A stretch of DNA of 64,000 bases from IMG/VR virus record IMGVR_UViG_2541047712_000002; one strand, written 5' to 3'. The DNA is from a virus. Its lineage: Duplodnaviria > Heunggongvirae > Uroviricota > Caudoviricetes. Made by a program: the position numbers. Below are positions 1 to 6,000 of this stretch, one piece after another. How positions within the stretch are numbered: the first letter of the stretch is position 1; every line of letters starts with the position of its first letter.

Positions 1-3000
1 GTTTACTTCCACAGCCTGTTCTGGCCTGCCATGCTGGAAGGCAGCAACTTCCGCAAGCCGACCAACCTGTTTGTTCACGGCTATGTGACGGTGAACGGCG
101 CGAAGATGTCCAAGTCTCGCGGCACCTTTATTAAAGCCAGCACCTGGCTGAATCATTTTGACGCCGACAGCCTGCGTTACTACTACACTGCGAAACTCTC
201 TTCGCGCATTGATGATATCGATCTCAACCTGGAGGATTTCGTTCAGCGCGTGAATGCCGATATCGTGAACAAAGTGGTTAACCTGGCCTCCCGTAATGCA
301 GGCTTTATCAACAAGCGTTTTGACGGCGTGCTGGCAAGCGAACTGGCTGACCCGCAACTGTACAAAACCTTTACTGATGCCGCTGAAGTGATTGGCGAAG
401 CATGGGAAAGCCGCGAATTTGGTAAAGCTATCCGTGAAATCATGGCATTGGCTGACCTGGCTAACCGCTATGTCGATGAACAGGCTCCGTGGGTGGTGGC
501 GAAGCAGGAAGGACGCGATGCCGATCTGCAGGCGATTTGCTCTATGGGCATTAACCTGTTCCGCGTGCTGATGACGTACCTGAAGCCGGTACTGCCGAAA
601 CTGACTGAACGTGCAGAAGCATTCCTGAATACAGAACTGACCTGGGATGGTATCCAGCAACCGCTGCTGGGCCATAAAGTGAATCCGTTCAAGGCACTGT
701 ATAACCGCATCGATATGAAGCAGGTTGAAGCACTGGTGGAAGCATCCAAAGAAGAAGTGAAAGCCACAGCCGCACCGGTAACTGGCCCACTGGCTGACGA
801 CCCGATTCAGGAAACTATCACCTTTGACGACTTCGCCAAAGTTGACCTGCGCGTGGCGCTGATTGAAAACGCAGAGTTTGTAGAAGGTTCTGACAAACTG
901 CTTCGCCTGACGCTGGATCTCGGTGGTGAAAAGCGTAATGTCTTCTCAGGCATCCGTTCCGCTTATCCAGATCCACAGGCACTGATTGGTCGTCACACCA
1001 TTATGGTGGCTAACCTGGCACCACGTAAAATGCGCTTCGGTATCTCTGAAGGCATGGTGATGGCTGCTGGCCCCGGCGGGAAAGATATCTTCCTGTTAAG
1101 CCCGGATGCTGGTGCTAAACCTGGCCACCAGGTTAAGTAATTAAACAACCTCTCTTCGCAATGCCCGGCAACACGCCGGGCATTTTCATATAGACACAAT
1201 CCCTTCTGATTTACACAGTACCTAAAACAATTTGTTTTCTGCCTTTTGTTGATGGAGATAATAAACCACATAAGAAAACAACTTGTTTTGGAGTGGTTGA
1301 AATGTTGAACATTACCCAAGCCTACCAGGTAGCATTGATCAGCTCATCTCATACATCAGAGGAAGATGCTCGCCGATTCATGATCGCAAGCAATGAGCTG
1401 GATTGGGTTTCACAAATTGAGTACGGTTGCATTGTCCACGCCGGGTTACAGGACGATGACTGGAAAGATGAGTTGCGTCGATATGGTATATCCGAGGGCG
1501 CGATTGCGAACATTCAGAAAGTACTTGATGTAGGCTTTGACTCTGTACATTTTGATTGTGGTGCACCGGTCGTTGAAGGGCTAGAGTGCTGGCAATGGTA
1601 ATCCGGCAATCGCTTCATACTAGACAACGGAGAATTTATGCTTAAAGAAGACTCATATCTACTAAAGGCGCTTGAAATGCGTGGCGTTGAACCTACAGTG
1701 AAAAACGCTCACGATATCTACCTTCAGTTTTCACCGGAGCTGAAACGGTTCATAAATCAATACGGGGTTAATGACTCAAGTGTTAAAGCAATGATAGATG
1801 ATGAATTAGACCATCTCATCTAATCGTTTCCTATGATAATGGTTTTCACTTTGAGATTGTTATTTTTCATAGCTAAAGCTGATGTTTGTGGAAGGTGGAT
1901 TGATAAACGGATGCGTATTTAGGTTATACAAGTGAGAAAATTGATAATATATAAACGCGATTTTTATGTGATGGAATGGATGTGATGGAAACCCAGAACC
2001 AACAAACAAAACCTCTGAATAACATTTATGCGTGGATTCTAGCGTTCATGCCTTTCTTCTTTGGAGTATCGCCGGAAGAGTATACCAATTACGCTATTAT
2101 AATTGGGGGTGTAACTACCATCGGTTTGTTAGTAGCTGACAGAATGGCTCTATCGGAGTCTGGCTGTGAACCACCTTCAATTCTATGGGGGGTATTCCTC
2201 CTGCCTGTCTATCTCTGGAAGCGCGCGACTATTACAAAAGGCAGCAGAGTGCCATTTATCATAATCGTTGCGTCGCTGGCTTGGGTTATCTTCATCGGCA
2301 TCCCACACAAGGACGAGGTTGCTCTTGAAGAAGCAGCCTGCCCTCTCGTGACAACTATTCTGAAAGAGAATAACGGTTCGACTGCACCAAAATGTATGAA
2401 GGTGACAATAGAGGACAAGGTGACGGATAAGTTCTATAGAGCAACGGCTACACTAGACAATGGTAATGACATTAACATTACTCTGGAACTTACCGGCGAC
2501 AGGAACTTCTACGTCCGTGTTCCAAATGTTTATCTGAACAACTAACGGTTGCAACTCATTGATAATGGCGGTCACAATTTGATTCTTTTCTATAAGAATC
2601 CGTTGATCGCCACTACTCCCCTTCCATACCCGCAATCACATCCTTAAATATCAATAAGTTATAGTTGTTTATACAATCAAGAAAACAACTGAATAACAGA
2701 TCAACGAAACATCAACGCTTTCACCCGATTTGGTCTAAAAAATTGACGTTTTCACACATCACTGCTTATACCCGTAATTCTACGCAGCAGACAGCGCCAC
2801 AGCGTCCAATTTTCACCACAGACGACCCAACACACTACCAACAAAAACACACGCTCAAAATCGTTCCCGTTGCGTTACATAACCATATAAACAACTTATT
2901 TTCAGGCATAACAAAACAACTAAATAACACATATGCCATTCCCAAAACAACCAACCTCTTTATGGCAGGCTACCGAAAAGACCCACCTCTTCTTCCCAGG

Positions 3001-6000
3001 CTACCGGACAACCAACCTAACTTTCACAGGCAATCCGAAAACATTCATACGCGCGATACCCACGACACGCCATTACCCAAACAGCGAAGAAACACCTGAA
3101 CCGCTGAAACCCCAACGAAGCCTGTAACCGCAAGGTTTCTCTCAATCCCAAAAGACACGAAACATAACAATCACGGGAAACGCCATTACCCAATACACGA
3201 ATAACTACAAAAGCCTTTCACACTCCAGACAAACAACTCAAACACAATAACGAAAGCAATCGCCCACCTGCCATTACTCCATAGACGGAGAAGAACAATC
3301 ACCAAAACGACGAGAACACCCCATAGAAGAACCACCGCAAAACGAACGAAACCACATACACCGACAGAGAAAACAACACACCCAATTCACCAACAGAATT
3401 AGTCGCTGTATAGAACGTTCTGGAAGGAGTGAGCATTAACGCCTATAGAGAGGTTGAGACAGATAAAACACGAAGAAAACACAACATGTATAGCGAAGAA
3501 GCCAGGTATGTATAAGTGGGGAGGGAAGGAGGGGTGTCGCCTCCTTTTTCGTATTTATTCAACTCCTGATTTTATCCCCCGTAACACCCCTACGGTCAGC
3601 CTTCGGTCCATACAGGGAAAAGGCTGCATCCCGCTACAGAAACGGCTGGGTTGCCTTCGGGGAACGGCTGGAGGTTTTCAGGGAAACGGTCGAGTTGCCT
3701 GTGTGGATTTCGGGAGAAGGCTCGATGCCGGTTCAGGAACGGTGGCGTACCGGTATAGCGAGAGGGAGAGTTGCGGCTACCCACCTGTAATGTGCGGGAA
3801 GAAGAGAGGCGCTCACGTGCAGGCGGACTTGCTTACCGCTGGATTCCCTCTGAATGCCCAGCTACAGCGTAATTGTGCCAGACAGCCAACGGGTCACAAT
3901 CGATTTCAGTAGGTTTTCGGGGAGAGGATTATTCTGCCCACCAGCCACTTTCGGCCACTAAATCAGAATAATGTAAAAAGTGTACTCGGTACTGAACCTG
4001 AAAACTCACTGCCAAAACCACATTCACCGGAATAAAATCCTTTTTCGCCTGTGCGTTATTGCGATAATAACGCCAACAAGAAAACATGTTGTTTAAGGAT
4101 TGCTTTATGTTTGCAAATATCGACATCAACCAAATCAAGAAATTGACTCAAAAAGAGTTTGACCAGTTCTATGAGCTGGAAGGTTGGTCTTCCACTCTGA
4201 TCAATTCGCGGTGGGTGCTTGAGCTGATGACTCGTGATGACGCACCTGCTTTGATGATTTGCGACATGGGTGAAGATGCTGACTTTATGGATATGAGCGA
4301 ATTTTGTGTGGACACATACAACCGCAGCCAGAAGTACTACTTCACATGCGATAGCGAGAATGATGTTATTTCTAAGGTCTATCTTCACCTTGTCCAGCAT
4401 TGGGACGTTCAGGAGTTTCTTGAAGTATTCGAGTAAACCTAACCAAAGCCAGCAATGCTGGCTTAATTTCTCTATAGCCGCAGGGAAGAACCTGCATATC
4501 GCTCATGCACCTGATCATTATGCTTTGTAGCCGTTTTCTTATTGGTATTATTTACGCCATTGAGAAAACAAGTTGTTTACGGAGTTGTGATGAAAAAATC
4601 ATTGGTTCTTGGTCTGGACAAAGACCAGAAGAGAAAAGAGAAGCCTGCGCTGGTTGCTCAATTAACTTTGCTGGACATCGTTGCCAATGGAACCTCTATT
4701 CGTCTGTTCCGTGAAACAGCGGTGTCTTTCGATAAAAACACCTTTACTCGTTATGTAATGAATGTTCGTCGCCAGCGTGGAAAAGGCTGGATGGCATTTC
4801 AAAGAATGTGGCCGGAACATCAGCTCGAACTGGCCTTGATGGAAGTTAACCGCGTGGCCCAGCAAGAAATTCAGAGAGCATCAGTGATGGCAATAGCCTG
4901 ATAATGTGCAAGTGGTAATTAGTCGACAGTACGACAGCCCCGCCATCCTTACGGGGCTTTTTTGTATTGTAAGTACATACTTACGATCATAGAATATAAA
5001 AATAACCAAAACACTACGGAGAGTGAAATGACCGTTAAACGCGAAAAACTGACAGTTGATGTTTACTATGCCTCTGAAACCGCCGAAGGTAAGAATGTGG
5101 CAAAAATCACCGTTGTTACGTACAACACCGAAACTGGTGCCGAAGTCCAGGCCAGTACGATCGTGCGTAAAGGTGATGCCTCCGGCGGCGAGTACGCGAC
5201 TCAATACCAGTCCATTCTCGATGCAACTGACCCGCTGCTGCTGAAAATCGAGAACTACTTCCGCCAGGTTGATGAAGAGGTGTTTGAAACCATGATGAAT
5301 ATGGTTAACACCGTATTCGCCTCCAGCCTGAACACCAGCACCACCTGGATTGGCCAGTACGGTCTGCGCATTACCTCTGGCATTCCTGCCGACACCTTAA
5401 TCCCTGAAAGCGTATTCGCTTAATCCTCTTTAAATGGCGCGCAAACCGCGCCATTTTATTATGCCCGATAACAATTTGTTTTCTACCTTATCTGATTTGT
5501 GAAAATGATTTCACTGAAGCAACTTAATAAGGAAACCATCATGGGACTTGATATCTATATCGAGACACAGCCTAAAAACGATCTGAATAACGAGGCATCC
5601 AGAAAGCAGGTTGCTTACTTCCGTAAGTTCAATGCGCTCGTTGGGTGGATGGAGCGCAACGTAGGTGAAGTCGAAAATTGTGAGCTTTTAGAATTAACGA
5701 TGAATGACATTTGTTTTCTGAAGGCTCATTTGATGCACATAAACGAAAGTAATTGCGAAGAGTACTTGCCTACCCGGGAAGGTTTTTTCTTCGGCAGTCA
5801 GGAGTACGATGAAGGTTACTGGCATGATGTGGGGGAGTTGAAAGAGCTTGTGGAAGACCTGATCAGGAACCACGACTTTCACAATAACAGACTGACGTTC
5901 TGCGCCTGGTGGTAAATATGGGCGATTTCAAGAAACGTCTGAAGGAGAGAGCCGAGATGGTCAGAAAGCAAAACGCCTCTTCTGTCATCAGATACGCAAG

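What the first reader, a model, noticed from the sequence alone, without database searches (positions are those of the whole stretch)
2600..3450. 850-bp non-coding, strand-biased (A+C-rich, G-poor) low-complexity region inside an otherwise gene-dense element
Phage genomes rarely leave about 0.85 kb untranslated. The + strand is nearly G-free with recurring CAACC/AAACAAC units and ~35-bp imperfect repeats (GGCTACCG..CCCACCT), one of which recurs at 6121-6195. The ORFs predicted here have implausible composition. A C-rich G-poor transcript would make a strong Rho-loading site; other options are a long ncRNA, an origin or packaging region, or a host-takeover entry region.
Basis: partly seen in the sequence, partly recalled or inferred. 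Interest (0 to 1): 0.55.

Follow-up and report, generated by a model that had tools for sequence, protein, structure and literature searches.

The report
Conserved untranslated AC-rich phage-plasmid region
A 0.8-kb A+C-rich stretch, part of a 1.5-kb gene-free region kept in hundreds of SSU5-type phage-plasmids of gut bacteria, is real, non-coding, under selection and silent in lysogens. It most likely makes an unstructured RNA on which the termination factor Rho loads, but its function has not been shown.

Summary
Window 2600-3450 is 69% A+C, against 50 +/- 2% elsewhere, with G at 13% (not "nearly G-free"). It is the 5' half of a 1.54-kb gene-free gap (2546-4085) in an SSU5-like E. coli phage-plasmid.

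No ORF is conserved, and close relatives carry 1-2-nt indels. The gap occurs in 836 plasmids and 12 phages. About 41% of AC-domain columns are invariant across lineages whose 4-fold sites are near saturation, and C>G persists in the variable columns.

The skewed domain begins at conserved + strand promoter-like modules. One has the same operator as the early-gene promoters. The domain ends at a + strand hairpin kept through G-C/G-U changes. It has no conserved RNA structure, no Rfam match and no Hfq, CsrA or GcvB motif enrichment. It is unrelated to the RepA iterons.

Published RNA-seq of the 97.8%-identical phage Cyrano shows 0-14 fpkm here. The gene 110 nt upstream gives 45-590 fpkm.

Best reading (confidence about 0.35): a repressor-linked untranslated unit whose unstructured C-rich RNA loads Rho and acts as an attenuator or insulator before the early genes. 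Rivals are a DNA protein-binding array or lytic origin, and a lytic-phase RNA acting in trans.

The parts
2546..4085 (+). Whole conserved gene-free gap between a variable cargo gene and the first early gene
   Evidence: Unannotated in RefSeq relatives. Length is 1.55-1.62 kb in 64 relatives, or 1.81 kb with an extra - strand gene. No conserved ORF.
2553..2612 (+). Block A: left boundary of conservation. Contains TTGA(C/T)A (2559-2564), an invariant hairpin GGCGGTCA...TGATCGCC (2567-2611) and a TATAAG box (2591-2596)
   Evidence: Sequence to the left differs completely between lineages. The 8-9-bp stem with one G-U pair is invariant. TTGACA-16-GAGGAT/GATTCT scores as promoter-like in 10/10 representatives, but the -10 is poor.
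2612..3400 (+). AC-rich, G-poor, unstructured domain (the finding proper)
   Evidence: Composition. 358 of 863 alignment columns are invariant in 5 deep lineages, and variable columns still have C 0.30-0.33 against G 0.10-0.20. The MFE is only -127 kcal/mol for 786 nt. The consensus structure is -7 kcal/mol over 433 columns.
2655..2697 (+). P_0: module that aligns with the early-gene promoter-operator modules but keeps only the left operator half (AAGAAAACAAC at 2679-2689)
   Evidence: Alignment with six D2-type promoters. Conserved AAGAAAACAA.
2680..2718 (-). P_div: divergent - strand promoter-like site (TTGAC(A/T)-16-TTTATT in relatives, weaker in this window)
   Evidence: Conserved in 9/10 representatives; the last -10 base maps to 2686.
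2743..2772 (+). P_B: promoter-like site TTGACG (2743-2748), 18-nt spacer, TATACC (2767-2772), preceded by an A tract
   Evidence: Present at the same alignment column in 10/10 representatives. This is the most conserved block of the gap. The -10 lacks the usual final T.
2870..2902 (+). P_C: TTGCG + TTACAT, then operator-like AAACAACTTATTTT (2889-2902). Relatives have the perfect palindrome AAACAAGTTGTTT
   Evidence: Same layout as the early-gene promoters at 1276, 4081, 4566, 6233, 44732 and 47959.
2944..3040 (+). D1 repeats: three tandem 30-31-nt units ACC(A/C)ACCT-N8-CAGGCTACCG
   Evidence: Boxes occur 3 times against 0.1 in shuffles. Two close relatives lack exactly one 31-nt unit.
2935..3300 (+). 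GCCATTAC boxes (2935 degenerate, 3069, 3182, 3270), in relatives followed by ..ACACGGAGAAGAAC
   Evidence: Relatives have 4-5 copies.
3266..3415 (+). Most conserved part of the AC-rich body: T-poor, with GAAGAAC repeats
   Evidence: 80-93% of positions are shared by 5 lineages. An IS1 insertion at 3306-3314 is tolerated in one plasmid.
3518..3549 (+). G-rich hairpin followed by a T run: 3' boundary of the skewed domain, terminator-like
   Evidence: Terminator scan. Kept in 11/11 sequences, with G-C to G-U changes and one compensatory pair. The G-U pairs only work in + strand RNA.
3613..3760 (+). Six direct repeats of about 22 bp, (C)(A/G)GGGAAA(A/C)GG(C), inside the most G-rich 300 nt of the window
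   Evidence: No significant RNA structure (z = +0.96).
4059..4100 (+). D2 promoter-operator of the first early gene: TTGCGATAAT, then AAGAAAACATGTTGTTT, then SD and ATG at 4108
   Evidence: GATAAT is conserved in 10/10 representatives.
6068..6183 (+). Second locus: hairpin without a U tract (6068-6090), then three more D1 units (6090-6183), directly upstream of the promoter of the 160-aa gene
   Evidence: C/G ratio reaches 3.4.
6763..6880 (+). Second cluster of GGGAAACGG(C) repeats (4-5 copies), after the 160-aa gene

Best explanation
The AC-rich domain is the body of a non-coding, + strand transcription unit at the junction between the variable cargo region and the repressor-controlled early-gene cluster of an SSU5-type phage-plasmid.

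Its RNA is selected to be untranslated, free of secondary structure and C-rich/G-poor. That is the substrate on which the termination factor Rho loads.

Proposed mechanism:
- Transcripts entering from the cargo gene upstream, or starting at the unit's own promoter-like modules (P_A, P_B, P_C), are captured by Rho, terminated and degraded.
- The conserved hairpin at 3518-3549 acts as a backstop.
- In the lysogen the early genes are therefore read only from their own operator-controlled promoters. The region works as an attenuator or insulator.

Shown: non-coding status, conservation, composition, promoter-like and hairpin boundaries, and absence of RNA in lysogens.

Inferred: that Rho is the factor, and that insulation is the selected function.

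The motif arrays (D1, GCCATTAC) probably add a second, sequence-specific layer that this explanation does not cover.
For: 1. C/G exceeds 1.5 in 99% of 80-nt windows over about 800 nt (median 2.38), unique in the window.
2. The bias also holds in the variable alignment columns of every lineage, and A<->C is the commonest difference. Composition itself is therefore maintained.
3. A+C-rich RNA cannot pair with itself. The MFE is -0.16 kcal/mol per nt, and there is no conserved structure.
4. The region is untranslated.
5. Polarity fits the + strand:
   - The skew starts just after conserved + strand promoter-like sites present in 10/10 representatives.
   - It ends at a hairpin whose G-U pairs only work in + strand RNA.
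   - One module carries the early-gene operator.
6. In LF82/Cyrano (97.8% identical), the gene that ends 110 nt upstream gives 45-590 fpkm. The AC-rich feature CYRAN_103 gives 0-14 fpkm in all 10 samples. The downstream early gene reaches about 220 fpkm (PMC9928086 S1 Table).
7. No intrinsic terminator lies between the upstream gene and the AC-rich domain.
8. The smaller copy of the architecture at 6068-6200 has the same layout after a gene end: a hairpin without a U tract, then a roughly 100-nt C-rich D1 array.
Against: - Rho loading needs composition, not sequence. Yet about 41% of columns are invariant, while 4-fold sites are near saturation even in terL and portal (0.31-0.47 identity).
- 80-100 nt is enough for a rut site, so 800 nt is unexplained.
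- An insulator needs no promoters of its own, yet up to four promoter-like modules point into it.
- D1 units have 30-31-bp helical phasing. In SSU5 they stay upstream of the 160-aa gene promoter even where the upstream gene is divergent. This looks like a DNA-level site.
- In Klebsiella relatives the left neighbour is on the other strand, so nothing reads in from that side.
- The RNA-seq drop could equally mean silent promoters plus an unrecognised terminator.
- Rho dependence was not tested.
Confidence: 0.35

Rival explanations
1. A cis-acting DNA element: phased arrays of binding sites for phage or host proteins. This could be a regulatory hub, or the lytic replication origin activated by repressor-controlled transcription. 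In the origin version an R-loop might form where the C-rich domain switches to the G-rich hairpin and the 22-bp repeat array.
For: - Strong sequence-specific conservation without an ORF or RNA structure.
- D1 units are spaced 30-31 bp and GGGAAACGG units about 22 bp, which is whole helical turns.
- Both motif families occur only at two loci that flank the early genes.
- D1 sits just upstream of a promoter at the second locus in all lineages.
- Operator-controlled promoter-like modules point at the most G-rich stretch of the window.
- Relatives encode RNase HI, a UvsW-like helicase, DnaE, a DnaB-like helicase and a ligase.
- The element is silent in lysogens.
- An IS1 insertion is tolerated for plasmid maintenance.
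Against: - No DnaA boxes and no marked AT-rich unwinding element.
- Cumulative GC skew is uninformative.
- No initiator protein was identified; the neighbouring proteins have no recognisable family.
- Binding-site arrays do not explain why the variable columns are also G-poor.
- The G-run cluster at 3518 is not unique in the window.
Confidence: 0.22
2. A functional long RNA made only early in infection or induction, acting in trans. Examples: a decoy that occupies Rho (or another single-strand RNA-binding host factor), or a sponge for G/U-rich host sRNAs.
For: - The unit looks like an early 'gene': promoter-like modules with the early operator, its own 3' hairpin, and the same orientation as the early genes.
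- The RNA would be unstructured and C-rich.
- CYRAN_103 rises slightly (0 to 5-14 fpkm) in the macrophage samples, where the early genes rise 10-40-fold.
Against: - RNA stays very low even when neighbouring early genes are derepressed.
- No enrichment of Hfq (ARN)n, CsrA GGA or GcvB-target CACAACA motifs over dinucleotide shuffles.
- No complementarity longer than 12 nt to the rest of the plasmid.
- No Rfam family.
- Pairing of D1 with the G-rich arm is no better than with shuffled targets.
- No lytic-cycle data exist.
Confidence: 0.15
3. A non-functional relic: decayed duplicates of early promoter / 5'-UTR modules and lost small genes.
For: - P_0 and P_C align with the functional D2 modules.
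- The GGAGAAGAAC boxes resemble Shine-Dalgarno regions.
- D1 and the GGGAAACGG repeats are duplicated at a second locus.
- An IS1 insertion and loss of single repeat units occur.
Against: - The region is present in essentially every SSU5-like E. coli plasmid: 246 records, against 236 for the terminase query.
- Its length is conserved.
- Identity is 59-67% and 41% of columns are invariant, where neutral 4-fold sites are 31-47% identical.
- The skew is kept in all lineages.
Confidence: 0.08
4. The plasmid replication origin, a partition site or a packaging site.
For: A large repeat-containing non-coding region. Two ParB-like genes and the terminase genes lie 10-14 kb to the right.
Against: - RepA with its own iterons, DnaA boxes and GATC clusters lies about 35 kb away, and its repeats are unrelated.
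- The motifs are direct repeats, not parS-like palindromes.
- The region is not adjacent to terS/terL.
- No read-pile-up or termini data were found.
Confidence: 0.03
5. An unusual protein-coding gene encoding a T/P/Q/H/N/K-rich disordered protein.
For: Long ORFs exist on both strands, for example 2665-3099 (144 aa). Some databases annotate them.
Against: - ORF positions, frames and strands differ between lineages.
- Substitutions show no codon periodicity, and frameshifting indels occur in close relatives.
- No family match.
- Long ORFs are expected by chance, because stop codons need T on this strand and A on the other, and both are depleted.
Confidence: 0.02

Closest known systems
Rho-dependent terminators and their rut sites (lambda tR1; Rho-dependent attenuators in long 5' leaders such as mgtA, corA and rho) - from established knowledge
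   Same: Untranslated, unstructured, C-rich/G-poor RNA. A hairpin without a U tract lies upstream that could protect the processed 3' end. RNA is lost abruptly downstream of a gene with no intrinsic terminator in between.
   Different: About ten times longer than a normal rut. Strongly conserved in sequence, not only in composition. Carries phased repeats and promoter-like modules of its own. Rho dependence is untested.
Immunity leader of satellite phage-plasmid P4 (CI RNA, seqA/seqC, Rho-dependent timm), and the related P1 c4 and N15 CA RNA systems - from established knowledge
   Same: A long untranslated leader in front of early genes of a phage that can live as a plasmid. Repeated short sequence elements lie in the leader. 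Premature termination keeps early genes off.
   Different: No C4/CI-like RNA was detected (Rfam). No complementary partner for the D1 repeats was found on the plasmid. Repression here seems to rest on a DNA or 5'-UTR palindrome shared by many promoters.
Transcription-activated or R-loop-primed origins (P1 P53/oriL lytic replicon, ColE1 RNA II, T4 oriF/oriG with UvsW) - from established knowledge
   Same: Repressor-controlled promoter-like modules read towards a G-rich stretch with iteron-like repeats. The element encodes RNase HI and a UvsW-like helicase.
   Different: No origin activity, initiator or unwinding element was identified. The leader is unstructured, unlike RNA II. P1 oriL lies inside a gene.
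RNA sponges and decoys with repeated single-stranded motifs (CsrB, CrcZ, SroC and the prophage anti-sRNA AgvB; SroC: PMC4474525)
   Same: Long or repeated unstructured A/C-rich RNA. There is a mobile-element precedent for sponging a G/U-rich sRNA.
   Different: The defining motifs are not enriched, and the RNA is almost absent in lysogens.
Iteron or centromere arrays of plasmids (P1 incA/incC, F sopC) - from established knowledge
   Same: Two clusters of direct repeats with helical phasing, a few kb apart.
   Different: The repeats are unrelated to this plasmid's RepA iterons. No cognate protein is known. The strand-wide base skew has no counterpart.

Membership tests
Rho-dependent terminator / rut site | C-rich, G-poor stretch of at least 70-80 nt on the transcribed strand | tested here: met
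   C/G median 2.38, above 1.5 in 99% of 80-nt windows across 2612-3400
Rho-dependent terminator / rut site | Little secondary structure in the RNA | tested here: met
   -127 kcal/mol for 786 nt; consensus structure -7 kcal/mol over 433 columns
Rho-dependent terminator / rut site | RNA not covered by ribosomes (untranslated) | tested here: met
   No conserved ORF, no codon periodicity, frameshifting indels. No ribosome profiling was available.
Rho-dependent terminator / rut site | The strand is transcribed and the transcripts end within or after the region | tested here: inconclusive
   Conserved promoter-like sites. RNA-seq drops from 45-590 fpkm to 0-14 fpkm within 110 nt, with no intrinsic terminator between. 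No 3'-end mapping.
Rho-dependent terminator / rut site | Termination relieved by bicyclomycin or rho/nusG mutation | not testable with these tools
   No such data set was found for an SSU5-like plasmid
Intrinsic terminator (3518-3549) | G+C-rich hairpin directly followed by a U tract | tested here: inconclusive
   Met in the window lineage. The hairpin is kept in 11/11 sequences, but the U tract is interrupted (TTTCTCC, TTTCCC) in the SSU5 and Klebsiella lineages.
Iteron-type plasmid origin or copy-control locus of this replicon | Repeats identical to the RepA iterons; DnaA boxes | tested here: not met
   RepA iterons are ATCCACT(A/G)TAGAGAG, at the repA locus only. No TTATCCACA in the gap.
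Known RNA families (Rfam 15, including C4/CI antisense RNAs and large phage-associated ncRNAs) | Covariance-model match at gathering score | tested here: not met
   Only tRNAs in the window. Best hits in 2400-4200 have E of at least 2.
Protein or sRNA sponge RNA (CsrB, CrcZ, SroC/AgvB types) | Over-representation of the ligand's binding motif (GGA; ARN/AAN repeats; CACAACA-like) | tested here: not met
   Counts are within the shuffle range in five lineages
Protein-coding gene | Reading frame conserved among relatives, with codon-position bias of substitutions | tested here: not met
Type III toxin-antitoxin (ToxI-like repeat array before a ToxN-like gene) | Tandem RNA repeats immediately upstream of a ToxN/AbiQ-family toxin gene in one transcript | tested here: not met
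   D1 x3 precedes the 160-aa gene at 6266, but a promoter lies between them and the protein has no Pfam, NCBIfam or PDB match

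The most novel reading that the evidence does not exclude
The unit encodes a repressor-controlled early RNA of about 0.65-0.95 kb whose job is to occupy Rho in trans. This would be an RNA-based anti-Rho factor: many rut equivalents on one unstructured transcript, fired from several tandem promoters at infection or induction. It would globally relieve Rho-dependent termination and Rho/H-NS silencing of the incoming phage-plasmid. Protein inhibitors of Rho are known (P4 Psu); to my knowledge a phage RNA that does this is not.
Probability: 0.1. 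Interest if true: 0.8.

Novelty: new variant of a known kind. Interest (0 to 1): 0.5.

Why it matters
SSU5-like phage-plasmids are common in clinical and animal E. coli, Klebsiella, Salmonella, Enterobacter and Citrobacter: 836 PLSDB plasmids match, and about 4.5% of complete E. coli genomes (246 of 5426) do. They also carry resistance genes.

Their regulation is essentially unstudied. This 1.5-kb region is their largest gene-free stretch. It is as widespread as the terminase query (246 records against 236) and is under purifying selection, yet it is unannotated or mis-annotated as hypothetical proteins.

If it is a Rho-dependent barrier, it shows how such elements keep variable cargo transcription apart from toxic early genes. 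If it is the lytic origin or a trans-acting RNA, it is a handle on induction.

In either case the spurious ORF calls (for example CYRAN_103/104 and SSU5_108/109) should be removed.

Tried and rejected
- **Rfam.** Searched at gathering score and at E of 10 or less; nothing found.
- **Whole-region RNA folding.** The G-rich half folds no better than shuffles (z = +0.96).
- **RNAalifold.** Neither the G-rich half nor the AC-rich 3' half shows a conserved structure, except the 3518-3549 hairpin.
- **Long-range pairing of the G-rich hairpin arm with the D1 repeats.** -28 to -33 kcal/mol, the same as shuffled targets.
- **Sponge motifs for Hfq, CsrA and GcvB.** Not enriched.
- **Antisense targets elsewhere on the plasmid.** Only matches of 12 nt or less.
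- **Plasmid origin or copy control.** The RepA iterons are different, and cumulative GC skew simply follows gene orientation.
- **Link to conjugative leading regions.** The Klebsiella large-plasmid hits are only IS-truncated phage-plasmid fragments.
- **Function of neighbouring proteins.** Nothing from Pfam, PHROGs, NCBIfam or PDB sequence search.
- **A second G-poor region at 58.1 kb.** It is plain AT-rich intergenic DNA.
- **TATAAG as a phage-specific promoter box.** Not over-represented: 24 sites against about 42 expected.
- **More distant relatives.** Searches of GTDB genomes, IMG/VR and metagenomes added many copies but no new deep lineage. Covariation power stays low, at about 4 lineages.
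- **Literature.** No paper on this region or on SSU5 termini or lytic origin was found. One preprint could not be opened.

Full report
**What the window is.** The window starts in a plasmid-borne metG and matches about 240 E. coli plasmids of 100-120 kb. It matches no chromosome. It also matches phage Cyrano (97.8%), Salmonella phage SSU5 (67%) and Klebsiella phage-plasmids (about 71%). It is therefore an SSU5-type phage-plasmid.

In the near-identical plasmid NZ_CP073971.1 nearly all genes run in the window's + direction. repA lies about 35 kb away. The finding lies between variable cargo (metG, DUF5983, a 189-aa protein) and a row of small + strand genes of unknown function. These are followed by a - strand operon with a regulator and a UvsW-like helicase, and then by the ParB-like, terminase and structural genes.

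**Observation.** Window 2600-3450 is 69.0% A+C, against 49.9 +/- 2.3% elsewhere (maximum 58.9%). G is 13.0%, against 23.7 +/- 3.4%.
- C/G exceeds 1.5 in 99% of 80-nt windows from 2612 to 3400. No other stretch on either strand behaves like this.
- 'Nearly G-free' is an overstatement, and CAACC is not enriched.
- AAACAAC, GCCATTAC and the two boxes of a 30-31-nt repeat (D1) are far above dinucleotide shuffles.
- D1 has three tandem copies at 2944-3040 and three more at 6090-6183.
- The gene-free stretch is really 2546-4085. It is the largest gap of the whole plasmid.
- The C-richest 300 nt of the window is directly followed by its G-richest 300 nt.

**Non-coding.**
- ORFs of 45-186 aa exist on both strands in every relative, but at different places, frames and strands.
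- Among 23 sequences more than 90% identical to the window, variable sites fall 19/15/19 over codon positions. One- and 2-nt indels are frequent, and the 144-aa ORF is cut short in most.
- The ORF matches no Pfam or PHROG family.
- Long chance ORFs are expected because stop codons need T (+ strand) or A (- strand), and both are depleted.

**Conservation.**
- The gap is found in 836 PLSDB plasmids from Klebsiella, Escherichia, Enterobacter, Salmonella, Citrobacter and Cronobacter, and in 12 phage records.
- In complete E. coli genomes the AC-rich part is as frequent as the terminase query (246 against 236 records).
- Sixty-four full-length copies are 1.55-1.62 kb, or 1.81 kb with one extra - strand gene. 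All have the same composition (A 35-40, C 29-32, G 13-17, T 15-18%).
- They form about four deep lineages that are 59-68% identical, plus recombinants.
- Four-fold degenerate sites are only 29-40% identical in the adjacent genes. They are 31-47% identical even in terS, terL and portal, whose proteins are 88-96% identical. Neutral sites are therefore near saturation.
- Against that background, 358 of 863 alignment columns of the AC-rich domain are invariant in five lineages.
- The variable columns still have C 0.30-0.33 against G 0.10-0.20, and A<->C is the commonest difference.
- Both specific sequence and base composition are therefore maintained.

**Anatomy.**
- *Block A.* Conservation starts abruptly at block A (2553-2612), with a TTGACA-like hexamer, an invariant hairpin and a TATAAG box. 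To its left the lineages carry unrelated genes.
- *Promoter-like modules.* Next come a module (P_0) homologous to the early-gene promoter-operator modules, a divergent - strand promoter-like site, and P_B (TTGACG-18-TATACC, 2743-2772). P_B lies in the best-conserved block and is present in 10/10 representatives.
- *P_C.* P_C (2870-2902) is operator-like, AAACAACTTATTTT here. In relatives it is the perfect palindrome AAACAAGTTGTTT that also follows the -10 of the promoters at 1276, 4081, 4566, 6233, 44732 and 47959.
- *AC-rich body.* It holds the D1 repeats, then 3-5 GCCATTAC boxes, then a T-poor, highly conserved block (3266-3415).
- *3' hairpin.* The skew ends at a G-rich hairpin with a T run (3518-3549). 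The hairpin is kept in 11/11 sequences through G-C/G-U changes and one compensatory pair. The G-U pairs would be A-C mismatches on the other strand, so this is a + strand RNA feature.
- *Downstream.* Six GGGAAACGG repeats of about 22 bp follow (3613-3760), then the promoter-operator of the first early gene. A smaller copy of the D1 and GGGAAACGG arrangement flanks the 160-aa gene (6090-6183 and 6763-6880). Neither motif occurs elsewhere in the 112-kb plasmid.

**Expression.** Published strand-resolved RNA-seq of E. coli LF82, which carries Cyrano, lists the spurious ORF CYRAN_103 (window about 2665-3021).
- CYRAN_103 has log2(fpkm+5) = 2.32 in both LB samples, which is 0 fpkm. It is at most 4.27 (14 fpkm) in all ten samples.
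- CYRAN_102, which ends 110 nt upstream on the same strand, gives 45-590 fpkm.
- The first early gene, CYRAN_105, reaches about 220 fpkm inside macrophages (PMC9928086 S1 Table).
- No intrinsic terminator is detectable between CYRAN_102 and the AC-rich domain.
- There is therefore no stable RNA in lysogens, and transcription or RNA is lost right where the C-rich domain starts. No lytic-cycle transcriptome was found.

**What it is not.**
- Not the plasmid origin. The RepA iterons, DnaA boxes and GATC clusters lie at repA and are unrelated.
- Not a known RNA family.
- Not a structured RNA.
- Not a recognisable Hfq, CsrA or GcvB sponge.
- Not an antisense regulator of another plasmid locus.
- D1 pairing with the G-rich arm is no better than chance.
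- One natural IS1 insertion at 3306-3314 and losses of a single D1 unit show that plasmid maintenance tolerates damage here.

**Mechanism.** A+C-rich RNA cannot base-pair with itself. An untranslated, unstructured, C>G RNA is what Rho binds (established knowledge). The boundaries, the polarity and the RNA-seq drop fit a + strand non-coding unit whose transcripts are captured by Rho, with the hairpin as a backstop. Such a unit would insulate the early genes from cargo transcription and from its own promoters. I put this at about 0.35.

It leaves three things unexplained: the length, the roughly 40% invariant positions and the dedicated promoter-like modules. Two rivals therefore stay open:
- The phased repeats and the G-rich array suggest a DNA-level protein-binding element, possibly the lytic origin (0.22).
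- The unit could be a lytic-phase RNA acting in trans (0.15).
- A relic (0.08), a partition or packaging site (0.03) and a protein-coding gene (0.02) are unlikely.

**Comparison and novelty.** The region works most like a Rho-dependent attenuator or terminator, and it resembles the untranslated immunity leader of P4. It meets the compositional, structural and untranslated criteria of a rut site, but Rho dependence is untested. Its size, conservation and repeat content have no described counterpart. I rate it a new variant of a known kind, with moderate interest (0.5). It is widespread, selected and unexplained, and it can be tested directly in LF82/Cyrano.

Noticed in passing
window 1225, 1276, 4081, 4566, 5470, 6233, 16470/16497, 44732, 47959 (and 2889): The near-palindrome AAGAAAACAAnTTGTTT sits 9-12 nt after a -10-like hexamer and just before the SD and start codon of many small + strand genes. 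It is probably the operator regulon of the prophage repressor, or a 5'-UTR hairpin.
   Followed up: partly
window 3613-3760 and 6763-6880: Direct repeats (C)(A/G)GGGAAA(A/C)GG(C) with a period of about 22 bp, 6 and 4-5 copies. They are found only at these two loci, which flank the early genes, in the whole 112-kb relative. They look like iterons, and no binding protein is known.
   Followed up: partly
window-wide, e.g. 3945(-), 6909, 16246, 19113, 27978: The Chi sequence GCTGGTGG occurs 14 times in 64 kb (about 2 expected), 10 of them on the + strand. The one at 3938-3945 (- strand) is conserved in relatives.
   Followed up: no
window 3306-3314; locus L142 (NZ_CP083480.1): An IS1 is inserted, with a 9-bp target duplication, in the most conserved part of the AC-rich domain of a blood-isolate plasmid. 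Plasmid maintenance tolerates the disruption.
   Followed up: yes
window 2950-2996; loci L070, L123: Two close relatives lack exactly 31 nt, which is one D1 unit. The repeat number varies (3 or 2).
   Followed up: partly
window 1638-1823: A 61-aa ORF has a sub-threshold Pfam hit to the T7 Gp5.9 RecBCD inhibitor (E 0.006, below the gathering score). Its neighbours are DUF5983 here and DUF1380 in relatives, which suggests an anti-defence or early island.
   Followed up: no
window 8771-9165, - strand: Four TATAAGG boxes lie within 400 bp on the - strand, near the regulator operon. Their meaning is unknown.
   Followed up: no
loci L005, L056, L084 (gap region): Identity patterns show mosaic relatives with recombination break points inside the non-coding gap. 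To the left of block A the cargo genes differ completely between lineages, so the gap borders a cargo-exchange hotspot.
   Followed up: partly
window 58100-58500: A second G-poor stretch turned out to be ordinary AT-rich intergenic DNA with a terminator-like hairpin. It is unrelated to the finding.
   Followed up: yes
window 31-1140; relative NZ_CP073971.1: The phage-plasmid carries a full-length metG. The relative also encodes apbC, Pol III theta, HumD, RNase HI, dnaE, nrdAB, thyA, dfrA51, a type I R-M system and three tRNAs. The window itself has three tRNA genes at 54.9-55.5 kb.
   Followed up: no
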